From a virus (taxonomy: Duplodnaviria; Caudoviricetes), in IMG/VR virus record IMGVR_UViG_3300008110_000371, positions 1 to 55,375 of that record: a stretch of 55,375 nucleotides of DNA; one strand, written 5' to 3'. The translations under genes were made by a program, and so were the position numbers. The notes beneath the pieces were generated by a model. That model was not told the origin of the DNA, searched no databases, and was given only the letters and a program-made list of their open reading frames with translations. Positions 488-38,520 of this stretch are shown piece by piece; the stretch's first letter is position 1, and each line of letters opens with the position of its first letter.

Positions 488-934
488 TCACCCAAAAATA
501 AGCCACGCTTGATCTGTAGACACCGTGACTGCCTTGCCTGTGTTAATCGTAATTGGCCCCACGGCGCTAGCGTTATTACCTACCGGAATCTTATAACTGC
601 TTGTGATGGTTTGATTGTTTAGTGAAAACAGCGTATTTGACGCCGGGAACGTTACAAAAACATTCTTTGTCCCTGCCGGAAAATCAACAAGGTTTGCGTT
701 ATTACTTGACGAAAGTACCGAATCTCTAGATAGCGTAGTGCCTGAAGCAGTATAAGTGCCTACCCCAACTTCCCAATACGTTCCTGATTGATCGGCAATA
801 CTATAGAGCGTCGAGTTGCCATCACCTACCGCAGCAAAGGATTGAAACCCCGTTACAGCACCAGCAAGGGTTACCGTCCCCGTTCCAGTGGTTGTCGTGG
901 TTTCTTGAACCCGATCTGCAAGAACAAAAGCCAT
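488..934 (-). CDS. Putative tail/virion structural protein
   Basis: [24 protein letters not shown]-terminus typical of phage tail-fiber-associated proteins; structural operon context. Confidence 0.65.
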
Positions 935-1509
935 TACGCAGACAAGCTAAAGGTATAAGTCACAAGCACCACGTCACCTGAGACTACTGAACGATCACCG
1001 GGGGAATCAAAGTCCTTGGCTGAAAACAGTGTCCCTGTTGTACCGCCTTTGGTGTTGTTACTTGTTAAAAACGCACCGCCGACGGTTGTTGTGGCGTTCA
1101 TGGTGAACTGCGCTTTACTTGCAGAATTAGTCACAACCGACGGGTTAGCATTGGTTGCAGAGGCAAAAGTTGCCGTCGGACGATCTGCTTCACTGTAATC
1201 AGTTACTTCGGTCCACCCTGCATGAGAAGACATCGTATCTCCGGCAGCGGGGTTGTTACTTGACGCTGCGCCGTATAACCCAAGATACCAAGTCGTAATC
1301 TGCGCCGTATTTGTTAGTGCGCTGCCAGCCATGTATTGAAGCCCGACATTGACCACAAGGTTCTTGGACTCATCTGTCCACTTGAGATTACCGTCTTTGT
1401 CGTAACACTCAATCAAAAACCGGCCTGTGGCCTTTAACCCTTCCGACGATCCGGGGTTGGTAATCAGACCGCAAGTGGCTGTGTCTGTTGCTTTAGCTGT
1501 AAGCTTCAT
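934..1509 (-). CDS. Putative tail/virion structural protein
   Basis: '[11 protein letters not shown]...' Thr/Ala-rich beta protein; stop overlaps the next start. Confidence 0.6.
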
Positions 1510-1519
1510 GGTGTATTCC

Positions 1520-1975
1520 TTACAAAATCCGAATGATTGCAGTAGATGCAGAAGCGGAAGGAAATTGAATCTGAAAAGTTTGATTCAAAGTCACCTGATC
1601 TCCGCCAAAACTTATAACAGCACACGCCGCGTTAGAGGCTGAGGCATTGTAAATTAAGGCCCCAGATGAAGTAAACGATGCTGCACTCCAACTAACGTTC
1701 GCAAAAGTCACCACGGAGGCGGTCCCATCCGCAACAGGCGTCACTGAAGCTAGCGTCTCGCCACCTGCGGTGTAGCCGCCTCCCGTGCTGAGTTCATTCG
1801 ATCCCATTTGGGAGTAATTGGTGGTTGATGCGCCATAGGTCCCGGATCCAGTTCCAAGGCTTTTGAACAAAGCAATCTTAAAAACATCTCCGCCCGGGTT
1901 CGAAAAGTTATGAATACCCTTCAAAAGCTCCACTTTGAAGCTTGTTGGCATTGCCGTAGTGATTGAAAGCGCCAT
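1520..1975 (-). CDS. Putative virion structural protein
   Basis: 'TSFKVELLKGIHNF...FKIALF...GYTAGG' pattern, common in phage tail regions. Confidence 0.6.
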   Translation of the reverse strand: MALSITTAMPTSFKVELLKGIHNFSNPGGDVFKIALFKSLGTGSGTYGASTTNYSQMGSNELSTGGGYTAGGETLASVTPVADGTASVVTFANVSWSAASFTSSGALIYNASASNAACAVISFGGDQVTLNQTFQIQFPSASASTAIIRIL

Positions 1976-1976
1976 A

Positions 1977-2780
1977 CTAAGGTCCTGGGCTCACTGACTT
2001 GATGGGCAACCGGATCATGCCGTCTCTGTATTCATCACGACGACGACGTCCCTGCTGTTCCAGGCCCAAGCCTTGTATAGCTTGTTGATAGCTCTGGTTG
2101 AAATAGTTCAGCATTTCAGGCGGTCCTTTGGTATAACTGTAGGCCTGAATCAAACAGGCATAGAGCAATGCTTCCGGTGCATTAATGCTGATCCATGTCT
2201 CGGGATTCGTGCTTGCAAGCTGCGCAGGGCGGTAGATGTAGCCTAGTTCAACCGTATACCCACTGCTTGGTGTAGGAGCAATGTAAAAAGTAGATTGGCT
2301 CCAAACCGAGTAATATTTTGGTACACCAGAGGGGGTCGCCGTTCCAGTGCCAGAACCCACGCCAGTAGCAGTAAACGTAGTACCCGGTGAGTTGGCTGCT
2401 GCTCCAATTGCGGTGAAATCAGTTGTGCCTACAGAAATAATGGTGTAGACGGTACCAATATTAAAACTTCCAGCAGTTTCCGTGACTCCAGGCCAATATT
2501 CTTTCATGAACGACGTGTCACGAAAATCCAAAAAGATCTGGTCATCGCCACTTGTAAGCAACAAGTACCGGTGAGTGAGGAGGTCTGAAGGCGTTGTAAG
2601 AAACTTATTGCCTGCGGTAAGAACGCCTGACTGTTCTTTCTTGAAGTAATCCAGGTCGATATCACGGAGAATGCGATTCTCCGCCATTGTAATAAATGTG
2701 TTAATTACCGAGTTGCTAAAGACATTACTGTCCACCTCGGTGTAGTTTCTAATGTTGGTGACGAGTTCGTCGTAAGTCAT
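1977..2780 (-). CDS. Head-tail adaptor / tail tubular protein A-like
   Basis: MTYDELV..IRNYTE, 'FITMAENRI', 'G.PKYY', 'APTP...YTVEL.Y', 'P.ALLYACL' adaptor-like motifs. Confidence 0.65.
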   Translation of the reverse strand: MTYDELVTNIRNYTEVDSNVFSNSVINTFITMAENRILRDIDLDYFKKEQSGVLTAGNKFLTTPSDLLTHRYLLLTSGDDQIFLDFRDTSFMKEYWPGVTETAGSFNIGTVYTIISVGTTDFTAIGAAANSPGTTFTATGVGSGTGTATPSGVPKYYSVWSQSTFYIAPTPSSGYTVELGYIYRPAQLASTNPETWISINAPEALLYACLIQAYSYTKGPPEMLNYFNQSYQQAIQGLGLEQQGRRRRDEYRDGMIRLPIKSVSPGP

Positions 2781-3139
2781 GAAATCACCACGGTGACGTT
2801 GCCAACAAACCCGTATCCGGCAACAAAAGCCTGGGGTGGGTACGGCTGCATGTCTGTGCGATTAGTCGTACTGAACCCAGAACCAATGCTTTGGAACGGC
2901 GCGCTAAAACCTGGAGTTCCAAGATAGATTGTAACCGGCTCAACGCGATCAACGCGAGGATCTTTAAGCGCAATCGCATCGCCTCGATACTTAAGCGGGT
3001 AGAGTTGCGGCTCTTTGGGCTCATAGTCGTCAGGACAGACCATGAACCCGCGCCAGTTCTTGCGCAAGGTATTGTAGGAGTACCGCTGGCCGCAGTAATC
3101 ACACAGGCCGAAGGAGAATTTGCCTGTTGCAAAGGACAT
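2777..3139 (-). CDS. Conserved phage protein with CxxC motif
   Basis: CDYCG...W.GFMVCPDDYEPKEPQL; overlapping-start coupling with neighbours. Confidence 0.6.
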   Translation of the reverse strand: MSFATGKFSFGLCDYCGQRYSYNTLRKNWRGFMVCPDDYEPKEPQLYPLKYRGDAIALKDPRVDRVEPVTIYLGTPGFSAPFQSIGSGFSTTNRTDMQPYPPQAFVAGYGFVGNVTVVIS

Positions 3140-3142
3140 AGC

Positions 3143-3808
3143 CTACTGCCCGAAGTCGGGGATAAAGAGTGCGCTTGCTGTGTCACGATCTTCTGCCGCT
3201 GCGCGTGCAAAGTCTTCTTCGTAGATCTGCTTCAGCATGACCGTCCGCTCAGGCGCGTATTTCAACGAAATCTGATAAGCAAGCCCGGAAGCGAGGCAAG
3301 GCAAAAAACGGAAGTTGACATCTGCCGTATTGGTATAGGTGCCCGCATCCTGGATCCGGCGAATGCGGTAGTAAACCAGCGTGTAAGCAAGATTGGGTGA
3401 TGGGTACAAAAAGACCTTGAACGTGTTAGCACGTTGTACGTATAACTGTGCAGGCTGGGCTTGCACAGTTTTATCGGGTAGGTCTAAGTACTCCTCGCGA
3501 CTGATCCGATCAAGCGTGATGTCTTGCTGCGGACTTACTCCTGGCAAACGGATGACCGCCGAGAGCACGTTGACCGTATCTGATCCAAGCGTGATCTCGT
3601 ATCCCCCAGGAGACAAGGTATAAGACGCTTGCTCAATGGTCCAGAGGTTCAGACCACGATTGGCCCAGTCTAAAAAGAGCAGGTTTAACGACCGTCGCGC
3701 AGACGACAATTGATATCCCGCCGTGGGACGCATGCCGCAGCGCTCAAAAGCCTCTTCGATTAAGTCATCAATCGAGAGGTTAAAGTCGGTTGTTCCTGAA
3801 GTTGCCAT
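3143..3808 (-). CDS. Head-tail connector/adaptor protein
   Basis: MATSGTTDFNL.IDDLIEEAFERCG...ARRSLNLLF.DWANRGLNLWT, a conserved podophage adaptor-like family. Confidence 0.65.
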   Translation of the reverse strand: MATSGTTDFNLSIDDLIEEAFERCGMRPTAGYQLSSARRSLNLLFLDWANRGLNLWTIEQASYTLSPGGYEITLGSDTVNVLSAVIRLPGVSPQQDITLDRISREEYLDLPDKTVQAQPAQLYVQRANTFKVFLYPSPNLAYTLVYYRIRRIQDAGTYTNTADVNFRFLPCLASGLAYQISLKYAPERTVMLKQIYEEDFARAAAEDRDTASALFIPDFGQ

Positions 3809-4006
3809 TTACGCGCAGCTAGAGCCGCCCATTTTCATTTTCTTAACACCCTTCATGGCCATGCGCTTGTGCTGGTTGACCAGCCCGCCATTAGCCATCA
3901 ACACAGGACCCGTTTTCTCGCTGGTTTTACTCAGCATCTTGTTGCGCGGTCCTGAAGTTACCGCACCGCCGCCGCGCGTTGCCGCGCCCATGCCACGTCC
4001 AGCCAT
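3809..4006 (-). CDS. Small basic protein (putative internal head protein)
   Basis: 65 aa, Lys/Met/Gly-rich; GMGAATRGG, MANGGLV and MKMGG motifs. Confidence 0.55.
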   Translation of the reverse strand: MAGRGMGAATRGGGAVTSGPRNKMLSKTSEKTGPVLMANGGLVNQHKRMAMKGVKKMKMGGSSCA

Positions 4007-4008
4007 GA

Positions 4009-4173
4009 TTATTTCCCCTTTTTGGCCATTTTCATGGCTTTGCCGCCTTTCTTCATGCCCATGGGCATGGGAGGCATCTTGGGCATAGCACGGCCCATCG
4101 CGTCTTTGGTCTTGCGCTTGACTGCACGGCCCATGTCATCAGCCATACCACCTTTTTGATAACTCTTCATCAT
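4009..4173 (-). CDS. Small basic Met/Lys-rich protein (54 aa, below the ORF-track cutoff)
   Basis: Manual translation MMKSYQKGGMADDMGRAVKRKTKDAMGRAMPKMPPMPMGMKKGGKAMKMAKKGK; start overlaps the upstream stop. Confidence 0.6.
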   Translation of the reverse strand: MMKSYQKGGMADDMGRAVKRKTKDAMGRAMPKMPPMPMGMKKGGKAMKMAKKGK

Positions 4174-30469: not shown

Positions 30470-30712
30470 TTAGTCATTGTCATCCTCCCCTTGAGCGATG
30501 TAAGCCGATCGGACCAGTGAAAGCACGGTGTTCAAAGCTTCATCTTCGGTCATCAATTCACGGTCAACAACGTAATGCACATGAATGCCCATCAACCAGC
30601 TGATTACGTACATCACTTCATCGGCGTCATAATCATTGAAAAGCTCGATGGCCTTAGTTAGCAGATCTGTGCTTGCTTCGACAACCTTTTTTAACTCGTC
30701 ATCGGGGCTCAT
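30470..30712 (-). CDS. Small acidic hypothetical protein
   Basis: 80-aa ORF, ATGA overlap with the upstream gene. Confidence 0.55.
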   Translation of the reverse strand: MSPDDELKKVVEASTDLLTKAIELFNDYDADEVMYVISWLMGIHVHYVVDRELMTEDEALNTVLSLVRSAYIAQGEDDND

Positions 30713-31227
30713 AGCGTCCTGCCTTGCAGCCGCTCGGCAACAAGTTTGGCGTAGCCTGCGATATCAGCCCATGAGTCAATGTGATCCGCATCGCCGTTGA
30801 TGATGCGAGCGATCTTATGGATGATCATGTCCAAAGCTTCTGCTTGATCATCGGCAAGGCGCTTGTTCCTTGAGCCAAGCTCCCTGTAGAGCACTGACTT
30901 AAACTCTTGCGCCGTCTTAGCAAGCGAGACAAAGGTGCCGTAGCTTTGGGCGCGCTCTTGCAGGATCTTATCAACGCCATCAAAAACAGCCTTCTTAGGC
31001 TGAGTAGCGTCAGCAACCTTCCGTACCGCCTCTAAGAGGCTGAGGGGTATGACGCCAACCTTGGGCTTGCGAGGACCGAGCTTGCGTCCCTTAAGCGGTG
31101 ATGGACCGAGCTTGCGTCCTTTCAGGGGCGAAGGCTTTTTGCGTGGACCGAGCTTACGCCCCTTGAGCGGTGAAACCTTCTTGGCAGGTGCCTCTGGTGC
31201 AACGTCTTCTTTACGTTTCTTCTTCAT
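30709..31227 (-). CDS. DUF6378-like protein with an N-terminal basic SPLKGRKLGP repeat
   Basis: 'ILQERAQSYG.F...DMIIHKIARIINGD..H.DSWADIAGYA.LV'; AGGAG SD before MKKKR. Confidence 0.7.
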   Translation of the reverse strand: MKKKRKEDVAPEAPAKKVSPLKGRKLGPRKKPSPLKGRKLGPSPLKGRKLGPRKPKVGVIPLSLLEAVRKVADATQPKKAVFDGVDKILQERAQSYGTFVSLAKTAQEFKSVLYRELGSRNKRLADDQAEALDMIIHKIARIINGDADHIDSWADIAGYAKLVAERLQGRTL

Positions 31228-31229
31228 GA

Positions 31230-31499
31230 TTACTCTCCTGTTGAAAATAGAGCTTTGTAAAAAGACCACTTGGCCTTGTAAAAAGGATCCTCACTGGGTG
31301 GGATCCAGGTCTCGCGTGGCTCTCGCTTAATGTTGACTGCAAGGCCAACACCCCGAAAGCTGTACTCGACTTCTTCGACGGGTCGGCTATCGATCTCCTT
31401 TGCACCACGCAGATCAAAACGCGTAAGCGTCTTGGCAGCAGGCTGGTTACGAAACCTTGCTAGGACATCTGAACCGGACTTCCATTGACGTTCTTCCAT
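31230..31499 (-). CDS. Hypothetical protein
   Basis: 'SDVLARF...WIPPSEDP.Y.AKW'; AGGAGA SD. Confidence 0.55.
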   Translation of the reverse strand: MEERQWKSGSDVLARFRNQPAAKTLTRFDLRGAKEIDSRPVEEVEYSFRGVGLAVNIKREPRETWIPPSEDPFYKAKWSFYKALFSTGE

Positions 31500-32517: not shown

Positions 32518-32634
32518 GAAAAAAGCCCGTGATCCTTGGACCACGGGCCAACATCGTCGGGAAGACAACAGGAGAGGTAGCTATAGACACTACCGCGTTC
32601 ATTATGCAGCCCATGGAGAACGGTGTAAAGATGC

Positions 32635-35463
32635 TCATCCCATCGACGCTCCCCACGTCTCACCTATCTCAACGTCCACCACTGACGGTACTTCAAGCTG
32701 CACAGCATTAGCCATGATATGTGCGGCCTCTTCAGCCTCTTCACGCTTGTTCACGGATAGCGCAAGCTCGTCATGTACGGAAAGCAGGAGATCAAACCCT
32801 GCTTTATGGAGTTCAACCATAGCCTTCTTGGTCTGATCCGCTGCTGAACCCTGAATCAATCGATTCAGGCCCTTATAAGTCATTGCACGCTTGATTCTTG
32901 GTCCATATTTGATGGAGGCTTCCTCAAAGGGCAGTGCCTTATTGATACCCCATTCAGTGGGCTCCCAAAGCGGGAAGCGACACTTGCGTCCTAACAAGGT
33001 ACGGATCGCGCCACCGGATCCCCGATGCTCAATCCGGCGCATCACGGCATCCACGGTGCCACGCAAGAAGGGCACTTTTTGATGAAAGGTTTTGATGAGT
33101 TCACTGGCCTCATCTAGAGGCATATCAAGCTGTTGAGCCATCTTTGCTTTTCCGGCGCCGTACATGATGGCCAGGGTGCAATTTGATACTAAGGTGTTCG
33201 ATACAGTGAAACGATGGCGGGGTCCGGCATTGAGTATGTCGTACACCTTCGCATACCGACGCGTTGATACGTGGGCAATTGATCGGGCTCCACACCTTGT
33301 TTGATCAACTTCACTGTCCAACCGCTCGTAAACTGGAAGTTTGGGTGATCCGTTTTCACAAGATGCCAAACATGACCTAAACAAACTCTCTGACCACGAT
33401 ACGTAACATAGCGTGTTATGCGACGGTTGGCACTGTTCTGTGAGGACGTGGCACACCGAATGTTCCCACGTACGTAACCCTTGTTGTTGTCGATCCGATC
33501 GATCTGTTTGCCAATCCAATCCTCGGCTGGAGCCACTGTGAGCAAATACTCCACCAATTCCTTGACCGACTCGAACTCGCAAGTTATGCCACGACTTCCA
33601 TAATGAGCATAACCCTTGTCGTTTGGATTGTTGCAGCGTTGGAGGATTGAAACCGCTCTCTTTTGTAAAAGAGATACCCCACGGGAAGAGACTAATAAAT
33701 TGCCCGCCAGACGATGACGCTCCGTCATGGCACAGGAGTTGCATTGTTTTGACCTTCCACGTTTCAAGTTGTCTAAAACCTTCCAGTCCTCGACGCCACA
33801 GGCGCATCGCACCCTTGTATAGTGATGCTTGCCACGACGTTGGATCTCCCTGGTGACCACTGTCCACATACCGAATTGCTTGCCCAGCATTTCCGGTTCG
33901 TACAGGTGTCTCCAGTCTTGATGCTGCGAGCCCGAGAGAAATCTTCCCTGATTCGACTGTCCAGATGTCGTGATCCGGTGTTGCGGTGAGATTGCCATAG
34001 GTGATTACCTCCTTGTTACCCATGAACACCACGCCATCGTGGTTCACCCATTCTACCCCATCCCATACCTTATGTGCCGTGGTTATTTTTTCAATGGGGA
34101 CTAGCCCACTATCAGTGAGTACAAGTTGGCCTTCTGCAATACATGTCTTCGCAACCTTCCGTGGCACGTTCGCTGCGTCGGCTACGATCTGATAGAAGTC
34201 TGTTCTCGGATTCTCTCGATAAGCCTTCACGACTTCGTCAGTACCAGAAAGACCTAATAAATGTGCGTAATGAATCAAGATCCTTGGTTCTTGAGACGAG
34301 AAGTCGTTTGCGGCCCATTTTTGACCCTCCTCCGGAAGGAAAAGTCCCCTGACTAATGGACCAAGAACCTCGTGTCTTGCGCTGACCTGTTGAAGATTCG
34401 GGTTGGCCATGGAAAGCCTGCCTGTGACCGTGCCACCATCGTCTGATCGAATCTGATTGATGTGCGGGTGGATGCGGCCATCGTGTGCAGAGAAGTCCAA
34501 GTAAGGCTGCAAGAACGTGCCGTGGGTCTTGTTGAGCTCGCGTGCTTCAACGATCTGTTTGCAGATCGGGTGCTCGTGCGTGTCAAGAAAACTCTTGGTA
34601 AAACTTGGTAGTCCGTTCGCGGTCCTTGGGTAATGGATCCCGAGCTTGTCAAACCCTGTAGCGATGCTGGCTGCGGCCCAGATGTCTACGGGCGACCCGC
34701 AGGCCTTGCGAATGGCCTTAACCAGTTGGGCCTCTTTGTCTTGCATCTCGCCCACGAGCTTGGTTGCCCGATCGCGATCAAAGCGGATGCCGCGCTTGGT
34801 GATGCCGACCAGCACAGGAAGGAGTTCAGTTTCTAGATCAAAGATCGATTCAACTTCTTCCTTGCGTAAGACCGCTTTGAAGTGCTGCCAAAGCTTAAGC
34901 GTGAGCGCAGCATCTTGCTCGGCGTACTCGCCCACAAACATGGCAGGTAAACGCCAGAGTTCTTTCTTGGCATGAACGCCAAAGTCTTGTGCGGCCTCCT
35001 TCAGTCCCTGCTCAGACTTGACCTCTTTGAGGTAATCGAAACCGAGGGCATTGAGGGCGTAGCTGAATCGGTTTTCATCGATGCAAGCAGCAGCGACCAT
35101 GGTGTCAATGATTCGACCCCGCACATTAAATCCAGAGGCGAGAAGCCATCCAAGATCGTAGGCGGCGTTGTGCATGATCTTGGGACATGGAAGGTCAAGC
35201 ACACGTCGAATGAATCGCTCAACAATCCCACGGTCAAGGTTACCTCCACCCTCATGAGCAACTGGGTAGTAACCTCGCCATCCTTCAACAGCAATGGCGT
35301 AGCCGACAATGTAACCATCATTTCTTGGCCATCCGGGGCCGAACCGTTCCATGTTTCTGTCGCACGTTTCCAGATCAATTGCAATCTCCTTGGCGTCAGA
35401 TAGATCGGGAAAAGAGGCCGGGGGAACCCACTCGGAGGTGGGCGGGAATAGTGGTAGCGTCAC
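32635..35463 (-). CDS. polA: DNA polymerase, family A (3'-5' exonuclease plus polymerase), intein-containing; Leu at the E. coli Pol I 762-equivalent position
   Basis: Exo I 'AIDLET', 'HNAAYDL'; 'TGRLS..NPNLQQ'; motif A 'DFSSQEPR'; motif B 'RKVAKT|CTLAIMYG'; motif C 'VHDEL'. Confidence 0.93.
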   Translation of the reverse strand: MTLPLFPPTSEWVPPASFPDLSDAKEIAIDLETCDRNMERFGPGWPRNDGYIVGYAIAVEGWRGYYPVAHEGGGNLDRGIVERFIRRVLDLPCPKIMHNAAYDLGWLLASGFNVRGRIIDTMVAAACIDENRFSYALNALGFDYLKEVKSEQGLKEAAQDFGVHAKKELWRLPAMFVGEYAEQDAALTLKLWQHFKAVLRKEEVESIFDLETELLPVLVGITKRGIRFDRDRATKLVGEMQDKEAQLVKAIRKACGSPVDIWAAASIATGFDKLGIHYPRTANGLPSFTKSFLDTHEHPICKQIVEARELNKTHGTFLQPYLDFSAHDGRIHPHINQIRSDDGGTVTGRLSMANPNLQQVSARHEVLGPLVRGLFLPEEGQKWAANDFSSQEPRILIHYAHLLGLSGTDEVVKAYRENPRTDFYQIVADAANVPRKVAKTCIAEGQLVLTDSGLVPIEKITTAHKVWDGVEWVNHDGVVFMGNKEVITYGNLTATPDHDIWTVESGKISLGLAASRLETPVRTGNAGQAIRYVDSGHQGDPTSWQASLYKGAMRLWRRGLEGFRQLETWKVKTMQLLCHDGASSSGGQFISLFPWGISFTKESGFNPPTLQQSKRQGLCSLWKSWHNLRVRVGQGIGGVFAHSGSSRGLDWQTDRSDRQQQGLRTWEHSVCHVLTEQCQPSHNTLCYVSWSESLFRSCLASCENGSPKLPVYERLDSEVDQTRCGARSIAHVSTRRYAKVYDILNAGPRHRFTVSNTLVSNCTLAIMYGAGKAKMAQQLDMPLDEASELIKTFHQKVPFLRGTVDAVMRRIEHRGSGGAIRTLLGRKCRFPLWEPTEWGINKALPFEEASIKYGPRIKRAMTYKGLNRLIQGSAADQTKKAMVELHKAGFDLLLSVHDELALSVNKREEAEEAAHIMANAVQLEVPSVVDVEIGETWGASMG
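33181..34143 (-). mobile_element. Intein (321 aa) in polA motif B
   Basis: Block A CIAEGQLVLTDSGLVPIEKI; block B LTATPDHDIW; block F KVYDILNAGPRHRFTV; block G LVSN/C; removing it restores RKVAKTCTLAIMYG. Confidence 0.9.
33189..33998 (-). CDS. HNH-type homing endonuclease overprinted in the +1 frame inside the polA intein
   Basis: 'GKQFGMWTV..RCACG...L..G.SKQC..C', 'RCNNPNDKGYAHYGSRGI', 'IDRIDNNKGY..GN.R.AT..QN..NRR'; SD AAGGAGGT at 34007-34014, 8 nt before ATG. Confidence 0.85.
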   Translation of the reverse strand: MAISPQHRITTSGQSNQGRFLSGSQHQDWRHLYEPEMLGKQFGMWTVVTREIQRRGKHHYTRVRCACGVEDWKVLDNLKRGRSKQCNSCAMTERHRLAGNLLVSSRGVSLLQKRAVSILQRCNNPNDKGYAHYGSRGITCEFESVKELVEYLLTVAPAEDWIGKQIDRIDNNKGYVRGNIRCATSSQNSANRRITRYVTYRGQRVCLGHVWHLVKTDHPNFQFTSGWTVKLIKQGVEPDQLPTYQRVGMRRCTTYSMPDPAIVSLYRTP

Positions 35464-36959
35464 AGTCGAAAGCCTTTCTGGTTGCTGCGTGGCATGACCA
35501 AGTGCAAGGTTTTACGAGTGCGCGTGATACCAACATAGAGCAACCGATTAATGTCGTCGGGGTTAGTGTCATAACTTTTGGCAAACTTAGTAGACAGGTC
35601 TGTCAAAAGTAGAACATTATCAGCTTCTCCACCTTTTGCGCCATGGATCGTGGAAAGTTTTATCTTCGGTGCTGCATTTAATTTCACACCGCGTCGAAGT
35701 AAAGCAATGATGTACTGGCGCTGGCTTGCACTGATCTTGGTCAGCACCTCGTGCCAGATGCCATCGGTCAACAGGCCCCACTTCGCATGCAAATCCTTGA
35801 TCGAGTACATCCGATCCTCGGGCGCACTGTTCAAGGTTTTAAATCCTTTAGCAATGAGCCCTGGGTCGAGATACGAGTAGATCGTTTTAGCAACCGATAG
35901 CGGGACCTCATTGCCCTTGCGCAACCCTTCCCAGCCGTAGACCGCTGCGAGCACCTTCTCGCCAATGCTCCGTTGTCCATGGCGCTCGAAAAGCAAACCT
36001 TGACTCTTGAGCCACTCGGGCAGTTCATCCAGCATGTAGTTTGCAGCGGCCATCACGAGCCACTCGCCATCGGTCATGTCGGCTTGGGAGAAATGGTTAT
36101 AGGTTTGGATGTTGCCCTGCTCATCACGAGCAGACCACTCCTTGGGCTGTCGATGGTGGATGCGCTTAACCACGCGCTCGGCTAAGGCGTGAACCTTGGC
36201 AGGGATACGGTAAGACTTATCCAGCACCTTGACTTCGCCAGGGAAGGTAAGGAACGAATCAACATCAGCACCTGCCCAGTTGTAGATCGCCTGATCATCA
36301 TCGCCTGCTAGGTAAACACGCGTAGAGCGTTTAGCAAGATCCTTGACTAACTGCCACTGAAGGCGCGAGAGATCTTGCGATTCATCCACAATCAGTGCAT
36401 CAAGGCGCGGTAAGCGATTGGGTTCTTGCACGATCAACTCAAGCAGATCGGTGAAGTCAAGCAGTCCGTTCTCGCCTTTGTACTGACGATAGGCCCGCTC
36501 CACGTACTCGAAATGAAACCACTCGATATCAAGCGAGGACTGGTTATAGTGGGTCTTTAGATCAAGGCCCTTGATCCGTGCAAGGTTGATCTCGTTCAGA
36601 ATGGCGTTGTCTGCTCGCGCTACGAACCCATCGATGTCGTTTTCTGTAGCGATCTCTAAGCCACAGCTTCTGCCAAACTCTTTATAGTTTTCATCTTGCA
36701 TCATCTCGCTCTTGTTAATCCCAAGACAGCGAAAGGCCAGCGAATGAAGCGTCCTGAACCACGGGAAATCCGTAGCAGGGTTTAGATGTGGGAACTTCAC
36801 GATCGCCCGATCACGCGCCTCGTTAGCCGCTTTGCGTGTGAAGGCAAAGTAGCCGATCTTGTTTGAGGCGGTGTCCTTGGACAACTCGTCTTGCACCACG
36901 CCCAAGAGGTACGTAGTTTTGCCGGTCCCGGGGGGACCGAATACTTTTTGCGTGCTCAT
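35460..36959 (-). CDS. UvrD/Rep-like superfamily 1 helicase
   Basis: GPPGTGKT, 'AFTRKAA.EA', 'TLHS', 'VDESQD', 'GDDDQAIY.W.GA', 'STIHGAKGGEAD', 'YVGITR'. Confidence 0.88.
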   Translation of the reverse strand: MSTQKVFGPPGTGKTTYLLGVVQDELSKDTASNKIGYFAFTRKAANEARDRAIVKFPHLNPATDFPWFRTLHSLAFRCLGINKSEMMQDENYKEFGRSCGLEIATENDIDGFVARADNAILNEINLARIKGLDLKTHYNQSSLDIEWFHFEYVERAYRQYKGENGLLDFTDLLELIVQEPNRLPRLDALIVDESQDLSRLQWQLVKDLAKRSTRVYLAGDDDQAIYNWAGADVDSFLTFPGEVKVLDKSYRIPAKVHALAERVVKRIHHRQPKEWSARDEQGNIQTYNHFSQADMTDGEWLVMAAANYMLDELPEWLKSQGLLFERHGQRSIGEKVLAAVYGWEGLRKGNEVPLSVAKTIYSYLDPGLIAKGFKTLNSAPEDRMYSIKDLHAKWGLLTDGIWHEVLTKISASQRQYIIALLRRGVKLNAAPKIKLSTIHGAKGGEADNVLLLTDLSTKFAKSYDTNPDDINRLLYVGITRTRKTLHLVMPRSNQKGFRL

Positions 36960-38520
36960 TAGAACGGACTCGCTTGTTTAGCCGCTGGCGTCTCAAAGGG
37001 TGCTTCTTGTTTCGGGAAGCATGGGATACGCCACACGCGTGTGGTGCGGCCTTTGAGAAACATGGGTAATGGTTCACCGCCAAGATCACGCAGCCGCGGG
37101 CCATCTTCGGTGCGCTCAGGCCCTTGAAGTTATTGCGCGTGAGGTGGTCCTCAAGATCCTTGATGCGGAAGTAAACCTTCTGATCCTCTTCATCCACCCA
37201 GGGCCTGCCCATGAGGATTTCATCACGGTCCATGGCCTGCTGGATGTGCGTGGTGAACTCCTCCAAAAGCGCCGTGAATCGCCCTGTGATGGTGGTGTCC
37301 TCGGATGCCTCTTGAATCTGCTCTAGCTCGACCATCTCACGCAGTAAGGCGTTGAGCACTTGCTCCCAGTCTTGTTTGCGTAGCGTGGGCGGTAAGAGGT
37401 TGATCTTGTCCATGCACGCTTTTTGAAACGCCGCTTGGTTGTAGAGACTCTCCGTATCGAGCTCAACGCGCCTGCCGTTGATATCCAAGAACCATAGTGG
37501 AGGCTCACTGTTGTACTTGGAGAGGGCAGACATTTGAGGAGCATCAGGGCCATCGGCACCAACGCCAAACTTGCGAGTGCGACAAAGGCCAGCATTACAA
37601 AAAGAATTAATCGGTGCATCTTTACACTTGTACTTGTAATCTTTTTTGGTCAGTTGCTTAACGATAACCTGCAACTCGCTCAGTCCCAATGGGGGACCAA
37701 AGTACTTTTGATTGTGCTCGGCAAGCTTGTCTTCCCAGTTGTGCGCACCCGTGCGCTTGAGGTAGATGCCGATATTGAAAAGGCCGTTGTTCCTTGTGCC
37801 TTCAGGAAAGCCCTGTGAACACAGCGTCTGTAAACAAGGCGGACCGTCCTTGATGGGCTGCTCAGGCTTGGCGGGTGCCTCTGGTGCAACGAGTTGGTCT
37901 TGCACCGCATCGTCATATAAACGATAAAACTCTTCAAGCGTAGCTGCCGTGCCATCGCTCTTAATGCCATAGCGCAGCGTTTCATCGCCGCCAAAGTAGG
38001 GTAGGTTTAAGAAGTTGCCCGTATCGCCACGGTCAACAAGAATCTCGCTTTGCTTGGGAAAGATCTCTCTGCCTGACTCACCCAATAGGGCTGCACAGGC
38101 GGTGAGATACTGACGCATGTCAGCGGCAGGGATCGGTTCCTTGGTGAATGCAAATACATGCGCGCCGCCTGATTTGCTGCGGCAAACGACAAGGGGCAGC
38201 TTCAGCGTCTTGATCTTCTCCACAACGCTGCGGTGATCGAGGGGATATTGATCAATATCAATACAGCCCCAAATGCAAGAATTATCAGCCCGGATAGGAA
38301 TAATGCCAAGAGAAGGCTCAACACCTTCCAGATGCTTTTCCCAGAGCTCATCCACCGGTGGTTGTCTAACCACCACGGCCTTTCCCGCTTGCTTGCCATC
38401 TCCCCTCGCCTTCTCAATCCGGTAGGTTCCGTAGGCGATATCCAATCCCTCAAAGATCGCCTTGAAGCGTTTGATGTCAGTCATTTCTGGCTTTCTCACA
38501 ACGGGGTACTCCCCGGTCAT
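36959..38520 (-). CDS. AEP-type primase/primase-polymerase with PriCT-like domain (apparent 1-nt frameshift near 37098)
   Basis: 'WGCIDID','SKSGGAHVF','GNFLNLPY','GPPCL','GTRNNGLF'; the natural C-terminus (RLRDLGGE...SPF*) is in another frame and ends at a TAATG overlap with the helicase. Confidence 0.75.

What the first reader, a model, noticed from the sequence alone, without database searches (positions are those of the whole stretch)
33181..34143. Dual-coding intein: HNH homing endonuclease in the +1 frame with its own ribosome-binding site inside the DNA polymerase intein
Seen in the sequence: polA carries a 321-aa intein (C1 at 34141-34143, ending VSN/C at 33181) in motif B. Its in-frame central ~200 aa show no nuclease motifs. 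A separate 269-aa ORF (33998-33189, same strand, +1 frame) lies wholly inside the intein and has a full phage HNH signature (CACG Zn-ribbon, RCNNP...YG.RGI, IDRIDNN.GY..GN.R.AT...N..NRR). The intein codons for K-E-V (AAG GAG GTA) also read as a perfect AAGGAGGT Shine-Dalgarno site 8 nt before the HNH ATG. The HNH stop falls 8 nt before the intein end. Both frames stay open over ~270 codons, which is very unlikely by chance. Established: intein endonucleases are normally in-frame domains released by protein splicing. Inference: here the endonuclease is translated independently, while the intein splices out the junk alternate-frame peptide and shelters the endonuclease gene in an essential site. 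I do not recognise this architecture from described inteins.
Basis: partly seen in the sequence, partly recalled or inferred. Interest (0 to 1): 0.93.

Follow-up and report, generated by a model that had tools for sequence, protein, structure and literature searches.

The report
Polymerase intein hiding out-of-frame HNH gene
A phage DNA polymerase gene carries a self-splicing protein insert (intein) whose middle is meaningless in the polymerase frame but encodes a complete homing endonuclease in the +1 frame, a layout reported only rarely so far but shared here by many related phages.

Summary
polA (32635-35463, minus strand) holds a 321-codon class-1 intein (33181-34143). A 269-codon ORF (33189-33998) sits inside it in the +1 frame. 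This ORF matches phage HNH endonuclease families and follows AAGGAGGT plus 8 nt.

Both frames are kept open by selection. Given the HNH protein, about 16 stops are expected in the polymerase frame and none occurs (P about 9e-10). Substitutions in the centre peak at the HNH wobble position. AlphaFold folds the two intein ends as a Hint domain and leaves residues 87-290 unstructured. It folds the +1 product well over residues about 31-250.

Independent assemblies show no indels. A precise 963-nt intein-less allele coexists with the intein allele in one riverine sample.

The layout is not unique. 46 of 52 related IMG/VR loci and 10 of 13 bacterial-genome loci carry an out-of-frame (+1 or +2) HNH. 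None has a canonical in-frame one. GenBank examples include Jerseyvirus, a Gardnerella phage and APSE-1.

The concept is already in print (Gorbalenya 1998; Gogarten-lab preprints 2025-26) for other endonuclease types. This is therefore a new member of a known, rare kind. Independent translation, splicing and cleavage remain untested.

The parts
32635..35463 (-). Family-A DNA polymerase gene (precursor, 942 aa) with a 3'-5' exonuclease domain and a polymerase domain
   Evidence: ORF. Pfam DNA_pol_A E=7.8e-51 and DNA_pol_A_exo1 E=1.2e-8. The intein-less homolog in phage DSL-LC04 is 621 aa, which equals 942-321.
33181..34143 (-). Class-1 intein, 321 codons, inserted in polymerase motif B (..VAKT | C...VSN | CTLAIMYGAG..)
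   Evidence: C1, block B T55/H58 and terminal N321 are invariant in 27 aligned relatives. Intein-less alleles lack exactly these 963 nt. The Foldseek hits above E=0.1 (38 ranks) are all inteins or an intein-like domain.
33889..34143 (-). N-terminal Hint lobe (intein residues 1-85, blocks A and B)
   Evidence: AlphaFold2 pLDDT is 94-97 over residues 1-80. pN/pS in the intein frame is 0.10-0.23 against relatives, with differences concentrated at intein codon position 3.
33274..33888 (-). In-frame filler of the intein (residues 86-290): open but unstructured, and not conserved as protein
   Evidence: pLDDT is about 36-53. No family hit. Intein-frame pN/pS is 1.06-1.26. The frame is free of stops against an expectation of about 16.
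33181..33273 (-). C-terminal Hint lobe (residues 291-321, blocks F and G, ..VYDILNAGPRHRFTVSNTLVSN)
   Evidence: pLDDT is 79-96. The block is conserved across 27 relatives.
33189..33998 (-). Nested ORF in the +1 frame, 269 codons plus stop: phage-type HNH (beta-beta-alpha-metal) homing endonuclease
   Evidence: PHROG HNH families, best E=4.8e-27. AlphaFold2 mean pLDDT 82.8. 111 BFVD structural matches at E<=0.001, many of them named HNH, homing endonuclease or AP2. +1-frame pN/pS is 0.31-0.42 in the core.
34007..34014 (-). Shine-Dalgarno AAGGAGGT, formed by intein codons K44-E45-V46, 8 nt upstream of the HNH ATG. A +1-frame TAA lies between it and the ATG.
   Evidence: Sequence. An SD-like site plus an ATG at offset 145 is kept in 8 of 8 non-redundant relatives of this subgroup. 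The Glu codon is GAG in 7 of these 8, against GAA in 4 of 4 K-E-V inteins whose HNH starts elsewhere.
33996..33998 (-). Proposed HNH start codon ATG, made from intein codons TAT-G (Tyr49-Gly50)
   Evidence: The Tyr codon is TAT in 8 of 8 relatives with this start. L012, L013 and L023 have no Met at the position of the internal ATG at 33890, which argues for this upstream start.
33249..33908 (-). Structured core of the HNH protein (residues about 31-250): N-terminal beta-sheet with Cys65/67/86/89, helical middle, beta-beta-alpha motif, C-terminal helical domain
   Evidence: pLDDT is 82-96 over residues 31-250, and below 50 over nearly all of residues 1-29. Conserved columns are listed.
33426..33506 (-). 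Beta-beta-alpha-metal motif (residues 165-191: IDRIDNNKGYVRGNIRCATSSQNSANR), with Arg168 in place of the usual His and an invariant Tyr175
   Evidence: Strands 165-168 and 180-183, then helix 185-190. A profile of 27 relatives aligns this stretch to I-HmuI (1u3e, E=0.011) and to R.PacI DRSDSFEGYSPQN (3ldy, E=0.082). R168, Y175, N179 and N191 are invariant.
32524..32549 (-). Terminator-like hairpin after polA. No promoter-like site was found inside the gene.
   Evidence: consensus scan only.

Best explanation
This is a mobile class-1 intein in motif B of a phage family-A DNA polymerase. Its homing endonuclease is a separate, overlapping gene rather than an in-frame domain.

The element is tiled in three parts:
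1. The N-terminal Hint lobe, in frame 0.
2. A free-standing-type HNH gene, in frame +1.
3. The C-terminal Hint lobe, in frame 0.

Ribosomes translating polA read through the HNH region in frame 0. That produces about 205 residues of unstructured filler, which is tolerated as a loop at the position where canonical inteins carry their endonuclease domain. The two Hint lobes then excise the whole insert and ligate the polymerase.

Other ribosomes initiate internally at AAGGAGGT-N8-ATG. These signals are written into intein codons K-E-V...Y-G. They make a roughly 30-kDa HNH protein whose first about 30 and last about 20 residues are disordered read-through of the splicing blocks.

The endonuclease is inferred to cut intein-less polA alleles during co-infection, so that repair copies in the intein together with the nested gene.

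Shown here: both reading frames, their frame-specific selection, the predicted folds, the precise presence/absence polymorphism, and the recurrence of the layout.

Inferred: internal initiation, splicing, cleavage specificity and homing.

Likely origin: a free-standing phage HNH gene invaded the loop of a mini-intein. Only insertions that left the polymerase frame open survived.
For: **Intein**
- C1, T55..H58, N321 and C+1 are invariant in the alignment of 27 relatives.
- AlphaFold2 pLDDT exceeds 90 for residues 1-80 and about 301-320, and is about 40 for 87-290.
- The Foldseek PDB hits are mini-inteins, with probability 1.00 at ranks 1-20 (DnaX, DnaB, Npu DnaE, RecA, gp41-1).
- Intein-less alleles differ by exactly 963 nt.

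**Endonuclease**
- PHROG HNH families, E=4.8e-27.
- pLDDT 82.8 with a beta-beta-alpha unit.
- 111 BFVD matches at E<=0.001.
- Profile matches to I-HmuI and R.PacI over the catalytic motif.

**Selection**
- Zero stops against 16.1 expected, P=8.7e-10.
- The same holds in 24 of 24 non-redundant relatives, with P from 1.1e-2 to 2.8e-14.
- Against L011, core differences by intein codon position 1/2/3 are 114/58/51. pN/pS is 0.34 in the +1 frame and 1.26 in the intein frame. In the N-terminal Hint lobe the intein-frame pN/pS is 0.23.

**Start signal**
- An ATG at offset 145 preceded by an SD is conserved in the subgroup, and a +1-frame stop lies just upstream.
- GAG is used in 7 of 8 inteins with this start, against GAA in 4 of 4 inteins whose HNH starts elsewhere.

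**Not an artefact**
- Two runs hold the whole stretch in one contig with 0 gaps, and no indel appears in any of 4 runs.
- A 98%-identical contig from another metagenome has the same frames.

**Mobility**
- Of 31 related polA loci, 2 carry the intein, 28 lack it and 1 is cut by the contig end. Three of the intein-less loci are 98-99% identical in the N-extein.
- Both alleles occur in one riverine DNA run, at depth about 53 (intein) and 44 (intein-less).
- Identity to an 89%-identical (N-extein protein) relative falls to 0.59-0.65 within 200 nt upstream and 100 nt downstream of the insertion site.

**Recurrence**
- 46 of 52 IMG/VR loci and 10 of 13 bacterial-genome loci have the out-of-frame layout.
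Against: - No experiment or expression data shows the +1 product. The one RNA-library run laid (X16) may contain DNA, and it covers the region only in part.
- Pfam and NCBIfam detect neither Hint nor HNH in this sequence.
- The intein's penultimate residue is Ser, where 21 of the 27 aligned sequences have His.
- The HNH has Arg at the general-base position. The Foldseek search against PDB gave no significant hit; PacI ranked 4 at E=0.44.
- The profile hits to I-HmuI (E=0.011) and PacI (E=0.082) are marginal.
- The SD may be kept partly because K-E-V is conserved in the intein itself. The GAG/GAA contrast rests on 12 related sequences.
- An internal ATG at 33890 (Met37) could be the real start in this phage.
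- Read laying used assembled contigs, not raw reads, and two of the runs may be the window's own source.
Confidence: 0.8

Rival explanations
1. Sequencing or assembly artefact. Two compensating indels hide an ordinary in-frame HNH intein.
For: Records with broken frames do exist in this family. L057, a Jersey-like record, and protein P0001 both run from the intein frame into the HNH frame.
Against: No indel appears in 4 independent runs, and two single contigs span the stretch with 0 gaps. The same frames occur in a 98%-identical contig and in relatives of 62-65% HNH identity. The HNH is out of frame in 46 of 52 IMG/VR loci and 10 of 13 genome loci. Stop avoidance in the polymerase frame would not be selected if that frame were not read.
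Confidence: 0.01
2. The +1 ORF is a relic. A formerly active endonuclease gene is no longer translated and is merely carried by a still-splicing intein.
For: Decay does occur in the family. Examples are L041 with a stop inside its HNH, L009/L012 with C-terminally shortened HNH ORFs, and mini-inteins L025, L101 and L102. Translation is unproven.
Against: The ORF is intact. Core pN/pS in the +1 frame is 0.31-0.42 against three relatives. The fold is confident. The SD and ATG are conserved. Intein-plus and intein-minus alleles coexist among near-identical phages.
Confidence: 0.08
3. The endonuclease is reached by programmed +1 ribosomal frameshifting from the polymerase frame. That would give an N-extein/Hint-N/HNH fusion rather than a product of internal initiation.
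For: Both frames lie on one mRNA, and no internal promoter-like site was found. Frame-fused predicted proteins exist in databases (P0001).
Against: A +1-frame TAA lies 2 codons upstream of the ATG, so a shift would have to occur after it. A canonical SD-N8-ATG is conserved. Relatives use +1 or +2 with different conserved ATGs, at offsets 145 and 92, which fits initiation better than a shared shift site. I made no search for a slippery site.
Confidence: 0.04
4. The insert does not splice. It would stay in the polymerase as a tolerated loop, as was proposed for the out-of-frame HNH insertion (ShiLan domain) in phage methylases.
For: Pfam and NCBIfam find no Hint domain. The penultimate His is replaced by Ser. 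Splicing is untested.
Against: All class-1 nucleophiles and blocks are present and conserved. The Hint fold is predicted with high confidence and matches solved inteins. A 321-residue insert in motif B of an essential polymerase is unlikely to be tolerated unspliced; this last point is inference.
Confidence: 0.04

Closest known systems
Actinobacteriophage inteins with an endonuclease VII-like homing endonuclease in reading frame 3 (Gosselin, Arsenault & Gogarten, bioRxiv 10.1101/2025.01.02.630785; abstract and sections 8 and 15 read, plus passages)
   Same: A contiguous intein with intact splicing blocks. The in-frame centre is unstructured. The endonuclease is encoded on the same strand in another frame. 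The proposed origin is invasion by a free-standing endonuclease gene.
   Different: The endonuclease family differs: a phage HNH with PacI-like Arg/Tyr motif here, against endonuclease VII-like there. The frame is +1 here, and +2 in sister lineages. The host gene is a family-A polymerase, at motif B. The hosts are not actinobacteriophages. That preprint lists its HNH inteins as in-frame.
Cyanobacterial DnaX intein with an out-of-frame LAGLIDADG endonuclease (attributed to Gorbalenya 1998, not held and seen only as cited; Phillips et al., bioRxiv 10.64898/2026.09.14.751524, abstract and section 17 read)
   Same: An overlapping-frame endonuclease inside an intein. Selection is frame-specific: low dN/dS in the endonuclease frame and raised dN/dS in the intein frame. 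Intein-plus, mini-intein and empty alleles coexist.
   Different: LAGLIDADG rather than HNH. A cellular gene rather than a phage gene. No Shine-Dalgarno-plus-ATG written into conserved intein codons is described in the parts I read.
Fractured genes: split inteins with a free-standing endonuclease gene between the halves (Dassa et al. 2009, PMC2677866; passages read)
   Same: A free-standing-type endonuclease gene sits between the N and C intein parts, with its own start, and overlaps the downstream intein part. Loci L028/L030 of this family look exactly like this.
   Different: In the window the host frame is not broken, so one precursor is made and cis-splicing is expected. The endonucleases in that paper are GIY-YIG and Vsr-like, not HNH.
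ShiLan domain: a hidden out-of-frame HNH inserted in mycobacteriophage DNA methylases (Arsenault et al. 2025, PMC11855218; abstract and section 4.3 read)
   Same: An HNH gene lies in another frame of an insertion that keeps the host frame open. The stop lies within the last bases of the insert.
   Different: That element has no detectable splicing domain and no detectable ribosome-binding site; leaderless GTG initiation is proposed. Here there is a complete intein and a canonical SD-N8-ATG.
Canonical intein with an in-frame HNH domain (cited as Dalgaard et al. 1997 in the preprint above; not read)
   Same: The same two functions, protein splicing and an HNH nuclease, with the same position of the nuclease between blocks B and F.
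   Different: There the nuclease is part of the intein polypeptide and is released by splicing. Here it is a separate translation product.
R.PacI and I-HmuI (PDB 3ldy, 1u3e)
   Same: A beta-beta-alpha-metal motif. PacI shares the D-R...G-Y-x-P-x-N form in which the usual His base is missing. PMC3384342 (figure legend read) states that PacI appears to have replaced it with a tyrosine.
   Different: Only the catalytic motif aligns (E=0.082 and 0.011). The whole-model Foldseek match to PacI is not significant (E=0.44). The domain architecture differs.

Membership tests
Class-1 intein (Hint domain) | In-frame insertion that leaves the host ORF uninterrupted and is precisely absent from homologous alleles | tested here: met
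   The 942-aa ORF has no internal stop. 28 of 31 related polA loci lack exactly this segment. A contig joint skips 963 nt.
Class-1 intein (Hint domain) | N-terminal Cys/Ser nucleophile, block B T-x-x-H, C-terminal Asn, and a +1 Cys/Ser/Thr | tested here: met
   C1, T55, H58 and N321 are invariant in 27 sequences. C+1 is.
Class-1 intein (Hint domain) | Penultimate His in block G | tested here: not met
   The window has Ser (VSN), as do L009-L011, L034 and L058. The other 21 aligned sequences have His. From recall, not from a call: inteins without this His are known to splice.
Class-1 intein (Hint domain) | Hint fold | tested here: met
   The AlphaFold2 lobes have pLDDT above 90. Foldseek probability is 1.00 to solved mini-inteins, best E=1.5e-3, TM to target 0.38-0.52.
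Class-1 intein (Hint domain) | Match to curated Hint/intein sequence models | tested here: not met
   No Pfam family at E<=1 and no NCBIfam family at E<=1. Only PHROG phrog_26005 (E=8.5e-10) and phrog_93 match, over residues 20-76.
Class-1 intein (Hint domain) | Protein splicing activity | not testable with these tools
   Needs expression of the precursor.
HNH / beta-beta-alpha-metal (His-Me finger) nuclease | Beta-hairpin plus helix carrying the motif, with conserved Asn residues | tested here: met
   Strands 165-168 and 180-183 and helix 185-190. N179 and N191 are invariant. The motif aligns to I-HmuI.
HNH / beta-beta-alpha-metal (His-Me finger) nuclease | General-base His at the end of the first strand (D-H / H-H) | tested here: not met
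   Arg168 is invariant in all 27 relatives. R.PacI has the same D-R...G-Y form and is said to use a tyrosine instead (PMC3384342). Tyr175 is invariant here.
HNH / beta-beta-alpha-metal (His-Me finger) nuclease | Match to curated HNH models or to solved HNH structures | tested here: inconclusive
   Pfam HNH/HNH_3 do not match. PHROG families named HNH match at E=4.8e-27. PDB profile hits are E=0.011 and 0.082. Foldseek against PDB is not significant. BFVD matches to proteins named HNH/homing endonuclease reach E=2e-14.
HNH / beta-beta-alpha-metal (His-Me finger) nuclease | DNA cleavage or nicking | not testable with these tools
   Needs purified protein and the intein-less polA target.
Non-canonical intein with the homing endonuclease in a separate reading frame | Splicing blocks in the host frame, endonuclease ORF wholly or mostly between them in another frame or strand, host frame open throughout | tested here: met
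Non-canonical intein with the homing endonuclease in a separate reading frame | Purifying selection on the endonuclease frame and relaxed selection on the overlapped intein frame | tested here: met
   pN/pS is 0.31-0.42 in the +1 frame against 1.06-1.26 in the intein frame, for three relatives.
Non-canonical intein with the homing endonuclease in a separate reading frame | Sporadic distribution among close host alleles (ongoing gain or loss) | tested here: met
   2 loci with the intein and 28 without, of 31 (1 cut by the contig end). Three empty alleles are 98-99% identical in the N-extein. Both alleles occur in one DNA run.
Fractured gene / split intein with an intervening endonuclease gene | Host gene broken into two ORFs, each carrying one intein half | tested here: not met
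   The window's polA is one uninterrupted ORF. Relatives L028/L030 do show the broken form.

The most novel reading that the evidence does not exclude
The window represents a large, old clade of phage inteins in which tiling a free-standing-type HNH gene out of frame inside the intein loop is the rule, not a rarity. The clade sits in family-A polymerases at two or more sites and in a terminase.

The endonuclease's ribosome-binding site and start codon are written into conserved splicing-domain codons. There are two solutions: ATG at offset 145 for the +1 frame and ATG at offset 92 for the +2 frame.

The clade also contains, side by side, every stage proposed for how inteins gain endonucleases and become split:
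- a mini-intein with an adjacent free-standing HNH (L025);
- a nested out-of-frame HNH (most loci);
- a fractured or split form (L028/L030);
- HNH loss back to a mini-intein (L101, L102).

If so, it is a natural test system for the 'endonuclease invades splicing element' model and for internal translation initiation inside an essential gene.
Probability: 0.55. Interest if true: 0.7.

Novelty: new member of a known kind. Interest (0 to 1): 0.58.

Why it matters
Inteins are normally pictured as one polypeptide with a splicing domain and an in-frame endonuclease domain. Cases with the endonuclease in another frame have been called rare in the few reports that exist.

**How common it is.** The layout is the norm for a whole intein family. 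46 of 52 IMG/VR loci and 10 of 13 bacterial-genome loci show it. 190 GenBank phage records hold the same N-terminal intein block, among them well-studied Jerseyvirus Salmonella phages and APSE. I checked the nested out-of-frame ORF itself in only three GenBank records: the Gardnerella phage, NBSal007 and APSE-1. In GenBank these genes are mostly annotated just as 'DNA polymerase'. Gene callers therefore miss a functional nuclease gene in such phages, and the polymerase proteins carry about 200 residues of meaningless sequence that should not be interpreted.

**A clear translation signal.** This case has a canonical SD-N8-ATG. The methylase case in print lacked a detectable one.

**A population to study.** Empty and occupied alleles coexist in this population.

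**Evolutionary intermediates.** Sister loci link mini-inteins, nested endonuclease genes and split inteins.

Practically, such inteins show how long an unstructured insert a Hint domain tolerates, which is of interest for intein engineering.

Tried and rejected
**Curated family searches.** Pfam and NCBIfam scans of both frames found nothing useful. Pfam's only hit was NHR2, E=0.13, which is noise.

**Structure searches of the HNH model.** Foldseek against PDB gave no significant match: best E=0.32, PacI at rank 4 with E=0.44. I do not use it as support.

**RNA structure and promoters.** An RNA fold of 106 nt around the SD and ATG gave no unusual structure (z=-0.67), so I propose no hairpin control of the start. 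The promoter scan found no internal promoter-like site. The count for the whole region did not exceed shuffles (2 found, 2.5 expected), so this says little.

**RNA evidence.** Run X16, a metatranscriptome library, holds contigs over 23 of 30 bins and also holds the intein-less joint. The joint also stands in a DNA run, and DNA may be present in the library. It therefore shows neither transcription nor RNA splicing.

**Search for in-frame forms.** The search for longer proteins gave 4 hits among 736 candidates.
- Three are multi-repeat free-standing proteins.
- One, P0001, is a polymerase that runs from the intein frame into the HNH frame and ends at the HNH stop. It is a broken frame, not a canonical in-frame intein.
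- The tool warns that finding none is weak evidence.

**Group I intron reading.** Considered and rejected: the host ORF is continuous, and Hint blocks are present.

**Literature.** I ran 8 searches. None returned a description of an out-of-frame HNH in a family-A polymerase intein, in Jerseyvirus or in APSE.
- The Jerseyvirus paper found (PMC8425127, passages) mentions only an intein-containing capsid morphogenesis protein.
- PMC7313666 (one passage) mentions differential loss of the APSE polymerase intein.
- PMC3556154 (passages) concerns other inteins.
- Gorbalenya 1998 is not held, and supplements were closed. The specific family may be mentioned there or in subscription journals.

Full report
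**What is there**

The minus strand of the window carries a 942-codon family-A DNA polymerase gene (32635-35463). Pfam finds DNA_pol_A at E=7.8e-51 and the 3'-5' exonuclease domain at E=1.2e-8.

Between ..PRKVAKT and CTLAIMYGAG.. (motif B) lies a 321-codon insert, 33181-34143. It starts with Cys and ends ..LVSN, followed by Cys. A 269-codon ORF, 33189-33998, lies inside it on the same strand, shifted by +1. AAGGAGGT at 34007-34014 sits 8 nt before its ATG. Its stop ends 8 nt before the intein end.

The window is an IMG/VR virus record of 55,375 bases, estimated 92% complete, and holds one copy of the ORF.

**Is it more than chance?**

I kept the HNH protein fixed and drew synonymous codons from the usage of the window's other genes.
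- The polymerase frame should then contain 16.1 stops over HNH residues 37-241. It contains none (P=8.7e-10).
- 50 codons are followed by a codon starting AA, AG or GA. None of them ends in T, although T is the third base in 55 of 205 codons overall.
- In 12,067 codons of other genes, the longest open run in this relative frame is 103 codons.

The polymerase frame is therefore held open by selection across a stretch that codes for something else.

**Which frame codes for what**

*Sequence families.*
- PHROG families named HNH endonuclease match the +1 product (phrog_374, E=4.8e-27, residues 38-204).
- The in-frame intein translation matches only over residues 20-76.
- Pfam and NCBIfam recognise neither frame.

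*Intein-frame model*, AlphaFold2 with an alignment of 27 relatives:
- pLDDT is 94-97 for residues 1-80 and 79-96 for residues 291-321.
- pLDDT is about 36-53 for residues 87-290.
- Foldseek places the model among solved mini-inteins (DnaX, DnaB, Npu DnaE, RecA, gp41-1) with probability 1.00 at ranks 1-20, best E=1.5e-3.

*+1-frame model*:
- Mean pLDDT is 82.8. It is high from residue about 31 to 250, below 50 over nearly all of residues 1-29, and 52-58 over the last about 20.
- It shows a beta-beta-alpha unit at 165-190.

The structured parts of the two frames barely overlap. The element is tiled as Hint-N (frame 0), then HNH (frame +1), then Hint-C (frame 0). Each product carries the other's region as a disordered stretch.

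**Frame-specific evolution**

I compared the window with three relatives whose HNH is 62-65% identical (L009, L010, L011).
- In the N-terminal Hint lobe, differences pile up at intein codon position 3. Intein-frame pN/pS is 0.10-0.23.
- In the centre, differences pile up at intein position 1, which is the HNH wobble position. Against L011 the counts are 114/58/51.
- In the centre, pN/pS is 0.31-0.42 in the +1 frame and 1.06-1.26 in the intein frame.

**Not an artefact**
- A contig from another metagenome, 98% identical in the HNH, has the same frames.
- Assembled contigs of four public runs from four studies showed no insertion or deletion. Two of them span all 1,151 bases in one piece with 1-2 substitutions.
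- These are contigs, not raw reads, and those two runs may be the window's own source.

**The nuclease**

The family has these invariant positions:
- R-C-x-N-P...Y-G-x-R-G
- D167-R168-I-D...Y175...N179...N191

Arg stands where HNH enzymes usually have the general-base His. A profile of the 27 relatives aligns this stretch to I-HmuI (1u3e, E=0.011) and to R.PacI (3ldy, E=0.082). PacI has the same D-R...G-Y-x-P-x-N form. [quoted passage not shown] Tyr175 is invariant here.

The whole-model Foldseek search of PDB was not significant. The BFVD search gave 111 matches at E<=0.001, many named HNH, homing endonuclease or AP2.

I therefore file the protein as a beta-beta-alpha-metal nuclease of the PacI-like Arg/Tyr form. 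Activity is untested.

**The start**
- In 8 of 8 non-redundant members of the window's subgroup, an ATG stands at offset 145 from the intein start. It is formed by Tyr (TAT) plus a G-starting codon. An SD-like site made by K/R-E-V codons stands 8 nt upstream.
- A +1-frame stop lies just before the ATG, between the SD and the ATG, in 7 of these 8; in L023 the +1 frame is open from offset 61.
- Glu is GAG in 7 of these 8. It is GAA in 4 of 4 K-E-V inteins whose HNH starts elsewhere. This is suggestive only, because the sequences are few and related.
- L012, L013 and L023 have no Met at the position of the window's internal ATG (33890), which favours the upstream start.
- I found no unusual RNA structure and no internal promoter-like site.

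**Mobility**

Of 31 IMG/VR loci with a related polA N-extein (66-99% identity):
- 2 carry the intein;
- 28 do not;
- 1 is cut by the contig end.

Three empty alleles are 98-99% identical to the window in the N-extein. They read ..AKT-C-TLAIMY.., exactly the spliced sequence. The other 25 read ..AKT-IGLGLMYGMG...

In one riverine DNA run, a contig joins across exactly 963 nt at depth 44, beside the intein-containing contig at depth 53. Identity to an 89%-identical (N-extein protein) relative falls to 0.59-0.65 within 200 nt upstream and 100 nt downstream of the site, and recovers further away. That is what co-conversion of flanks during homing would leave.

**How common is the layout?**

*IMG/VR.* A scan with the N-terminal intein block gave 52 loci. 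Local tblastn with four HNH queries hit 49 of them.

| HNH position relative to the intein frame | Loci |
|---|---|
| +1 frame | 26 |
| +2 frame | 22 |
| Frame 0 (L057, a record with several frame breaks) | 1 |
| No hit | 3 |

- In 44 loci the hit lies inside an intein whose host frame is open up to recognisable F/G blocks. In one of these, L041, the HNH frame itself has a stop.
- Two more loci, L058 and L059, are a terminase intein. Their +2 ORF matches Pfam HNH_3 at E=1.8e-9.
- That makes 46 of 52.
- The other six are:
  - L025, a 135-residue mini-intein with a free-standing HNH overlapping the 3' end of pol;
  - L028 and L030, where the host gene is split into two ORFs around the HNH;
  - L024 and L049, cut by contig ends;
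  - L057.
- Many loci are near-duplicates. In 24 non-redundant relatives the host frame has zero stops across the HNH, with P from 1.1e-2 to 2.8e-14.

*Bacterial genomes.* 10 of 13 loci have the nested out-of-frame HNH, 2 are mini-inteins and 1 is broken.

*GenBank phages.* 190 records hold the N-terminal block, 143 of them Salmonella phages. Some are annotated 'intein-containing DNA polymerase precursor'. Of the 40 best tblastn rows for the HNH, 35 lie under a DNA polymerase annotation, 4 have no annotation and 1 is 'hypothetical protein'.

I read the frames directly in three GenBank records:
- Gardnerella phage vB_Gva_AB1: +1 frame.
- Salmonella phage NBSal007: +2 frame.
- APSE-1: the intein sits at another polymerase site, and RefSeq annotates a nested 'HNH endonuclease' CDS in +1.

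*In-frame forms.* A search for longer proteins found no canonical in-frame form. This is weak evidence.

**Comparison with what is known**

The kind is in print.
- Homing endonucleases in another frame or strand of an intein are attributed to Gorbalenya 1998, which I saw only as cited.
- They are described for actinobacteriophages: antisense LAGLIDADG, antisense Vsr-like, and endonuclease VII-like in frame 3 (10.1101/2025.01.02.630785; abstract, sections 8 and 15, and passages read).
- They are described for cyanobacterial DnaX: out-of-frame LAGLIDADG, with the same frame-specific dN/dS pattern (10.64898/2026.09.14.751524; abstract and section 17 read).
- An out-of-frame HNH without any intein sits in mycobacteriophage methylases. 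No ribosome-binding site was detectable there (PMC11855218; abstract and section 4.3 read).
- Split inteins with an intervening endonuclease gene are the fractured genes of Dassa et al. (PMC2677866; passages read).

What is new here:
- the endonuclease family;
- the host gene and insertion site;
- the canonical start signal written into splicing-domain codons;
- the size and spread of the clade;
- the presence of both +1 and +2 solutions.

My 8 literature searches found no description of this specific family. Supplements and subscription journals were out of reach.

**Verdict**

The frames, the selection and the folds are shown. Translation, splicing and homing are inferred. The novelty claim is too strong: this is a new member, and probably the largest known group, of a rare but already described kind.

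Noticed in passing
L028 and L030 (identical over 5,195 nt), about 1259-4059: A relative in which the polymerase is broken into two ORFs. N-extein plus Hint-N ends at a stop 161 codons into the intein. The HNH ORF lies in a second frame (2592-3449). Hint-C plus C-extein lies in a third frame, with a candidate ATG at 3415 that overlaps the HNH 3' end by 35 nt. This looks like a 'fractured gene'/split intein. The two contigs are identical, so an assembly error is not excluded.
   Followed up: partly
L025, 2501-2905 and 3501-4178: A 135-residue mini-intein at the same polymerase site, with no nested gene. A free-standing HNH of the same family overlaps the 3' end of the polymerase gene. This may be a collaborative arrangement or a precursor state.
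   Followed up: partly
L058 and L059, intein at 1798-2589 (L058): A related intein in a terminase large subunit gene. It carries a 239-codon +2-frame ORF that matches canonical Pfam HNH_3 (E=1.8e-9), a different HNH family from the window's. The out-of-frame layout has therefore arisen with more than one endonuclease type.
   Followed up: partly
L092 (APSE-1, NC_000935.1), 677-3658 and 2703-3353: The APSE-1 polymerase P45 carries this intein family at a different site (..YGGKS|C...VHN|CENICQ..). RefSeq annotates a nested +1 CDS (P46, 141 aa) as 'HNH endonuclease'. The open frame allows 216 aa from a GTG start.
   Followed up: partly
L057 (Jersey-like IMG/VR record), 2492-3301; protein P0001: In these records the frame runs from Hint-N into the HNH frame, and in P0001 it ends at the HNH stop. 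They are either decayed alleles or sequencing errors. They could be mistaken for in-frame HNH inteins.
   Followed up: partly
L101 and L102 (bacterial genome contigs): Mini-inteins of 139 and 123 residues at the same site. L102 keeps only a 26-residue relic of the HNH tail in +1, which suggests loss of the nested gene by deletion.
   Followed up: no
window 34144-34343 and 33081-33180, compared with L068: The extein DNA next to the insertion site is much more diverged from an otherwise 89%-identical (N-extein protein) relative (0.59-0.65 identity) than DNA 300-700 nt upstream (0.87-0.93). The intein-less alleles L061/L063/L064 share the window's flank type, including Cys at +1. This fits co-conversion followed by precise intein loss, but it is not proven.
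   Followed up: partly
window 30709-31269 (-): A small ORF with a tandemly repeated, Lys/Pro/Gly-rich peptide motif (..SPLKGRKLGPRK.. three times) near its N-terminus. Function not examined.
   Followed up: no
window 35460-36959 and 36823-38520 (-): The helicase-like ORF upstream of polA overlaps polA by 4 nt. The listed ORF upstream of it (565 aa) overlaps the helicase ORF by 137 nt, so one of the two starts is probably further in. Not examined.
   Followed up: no
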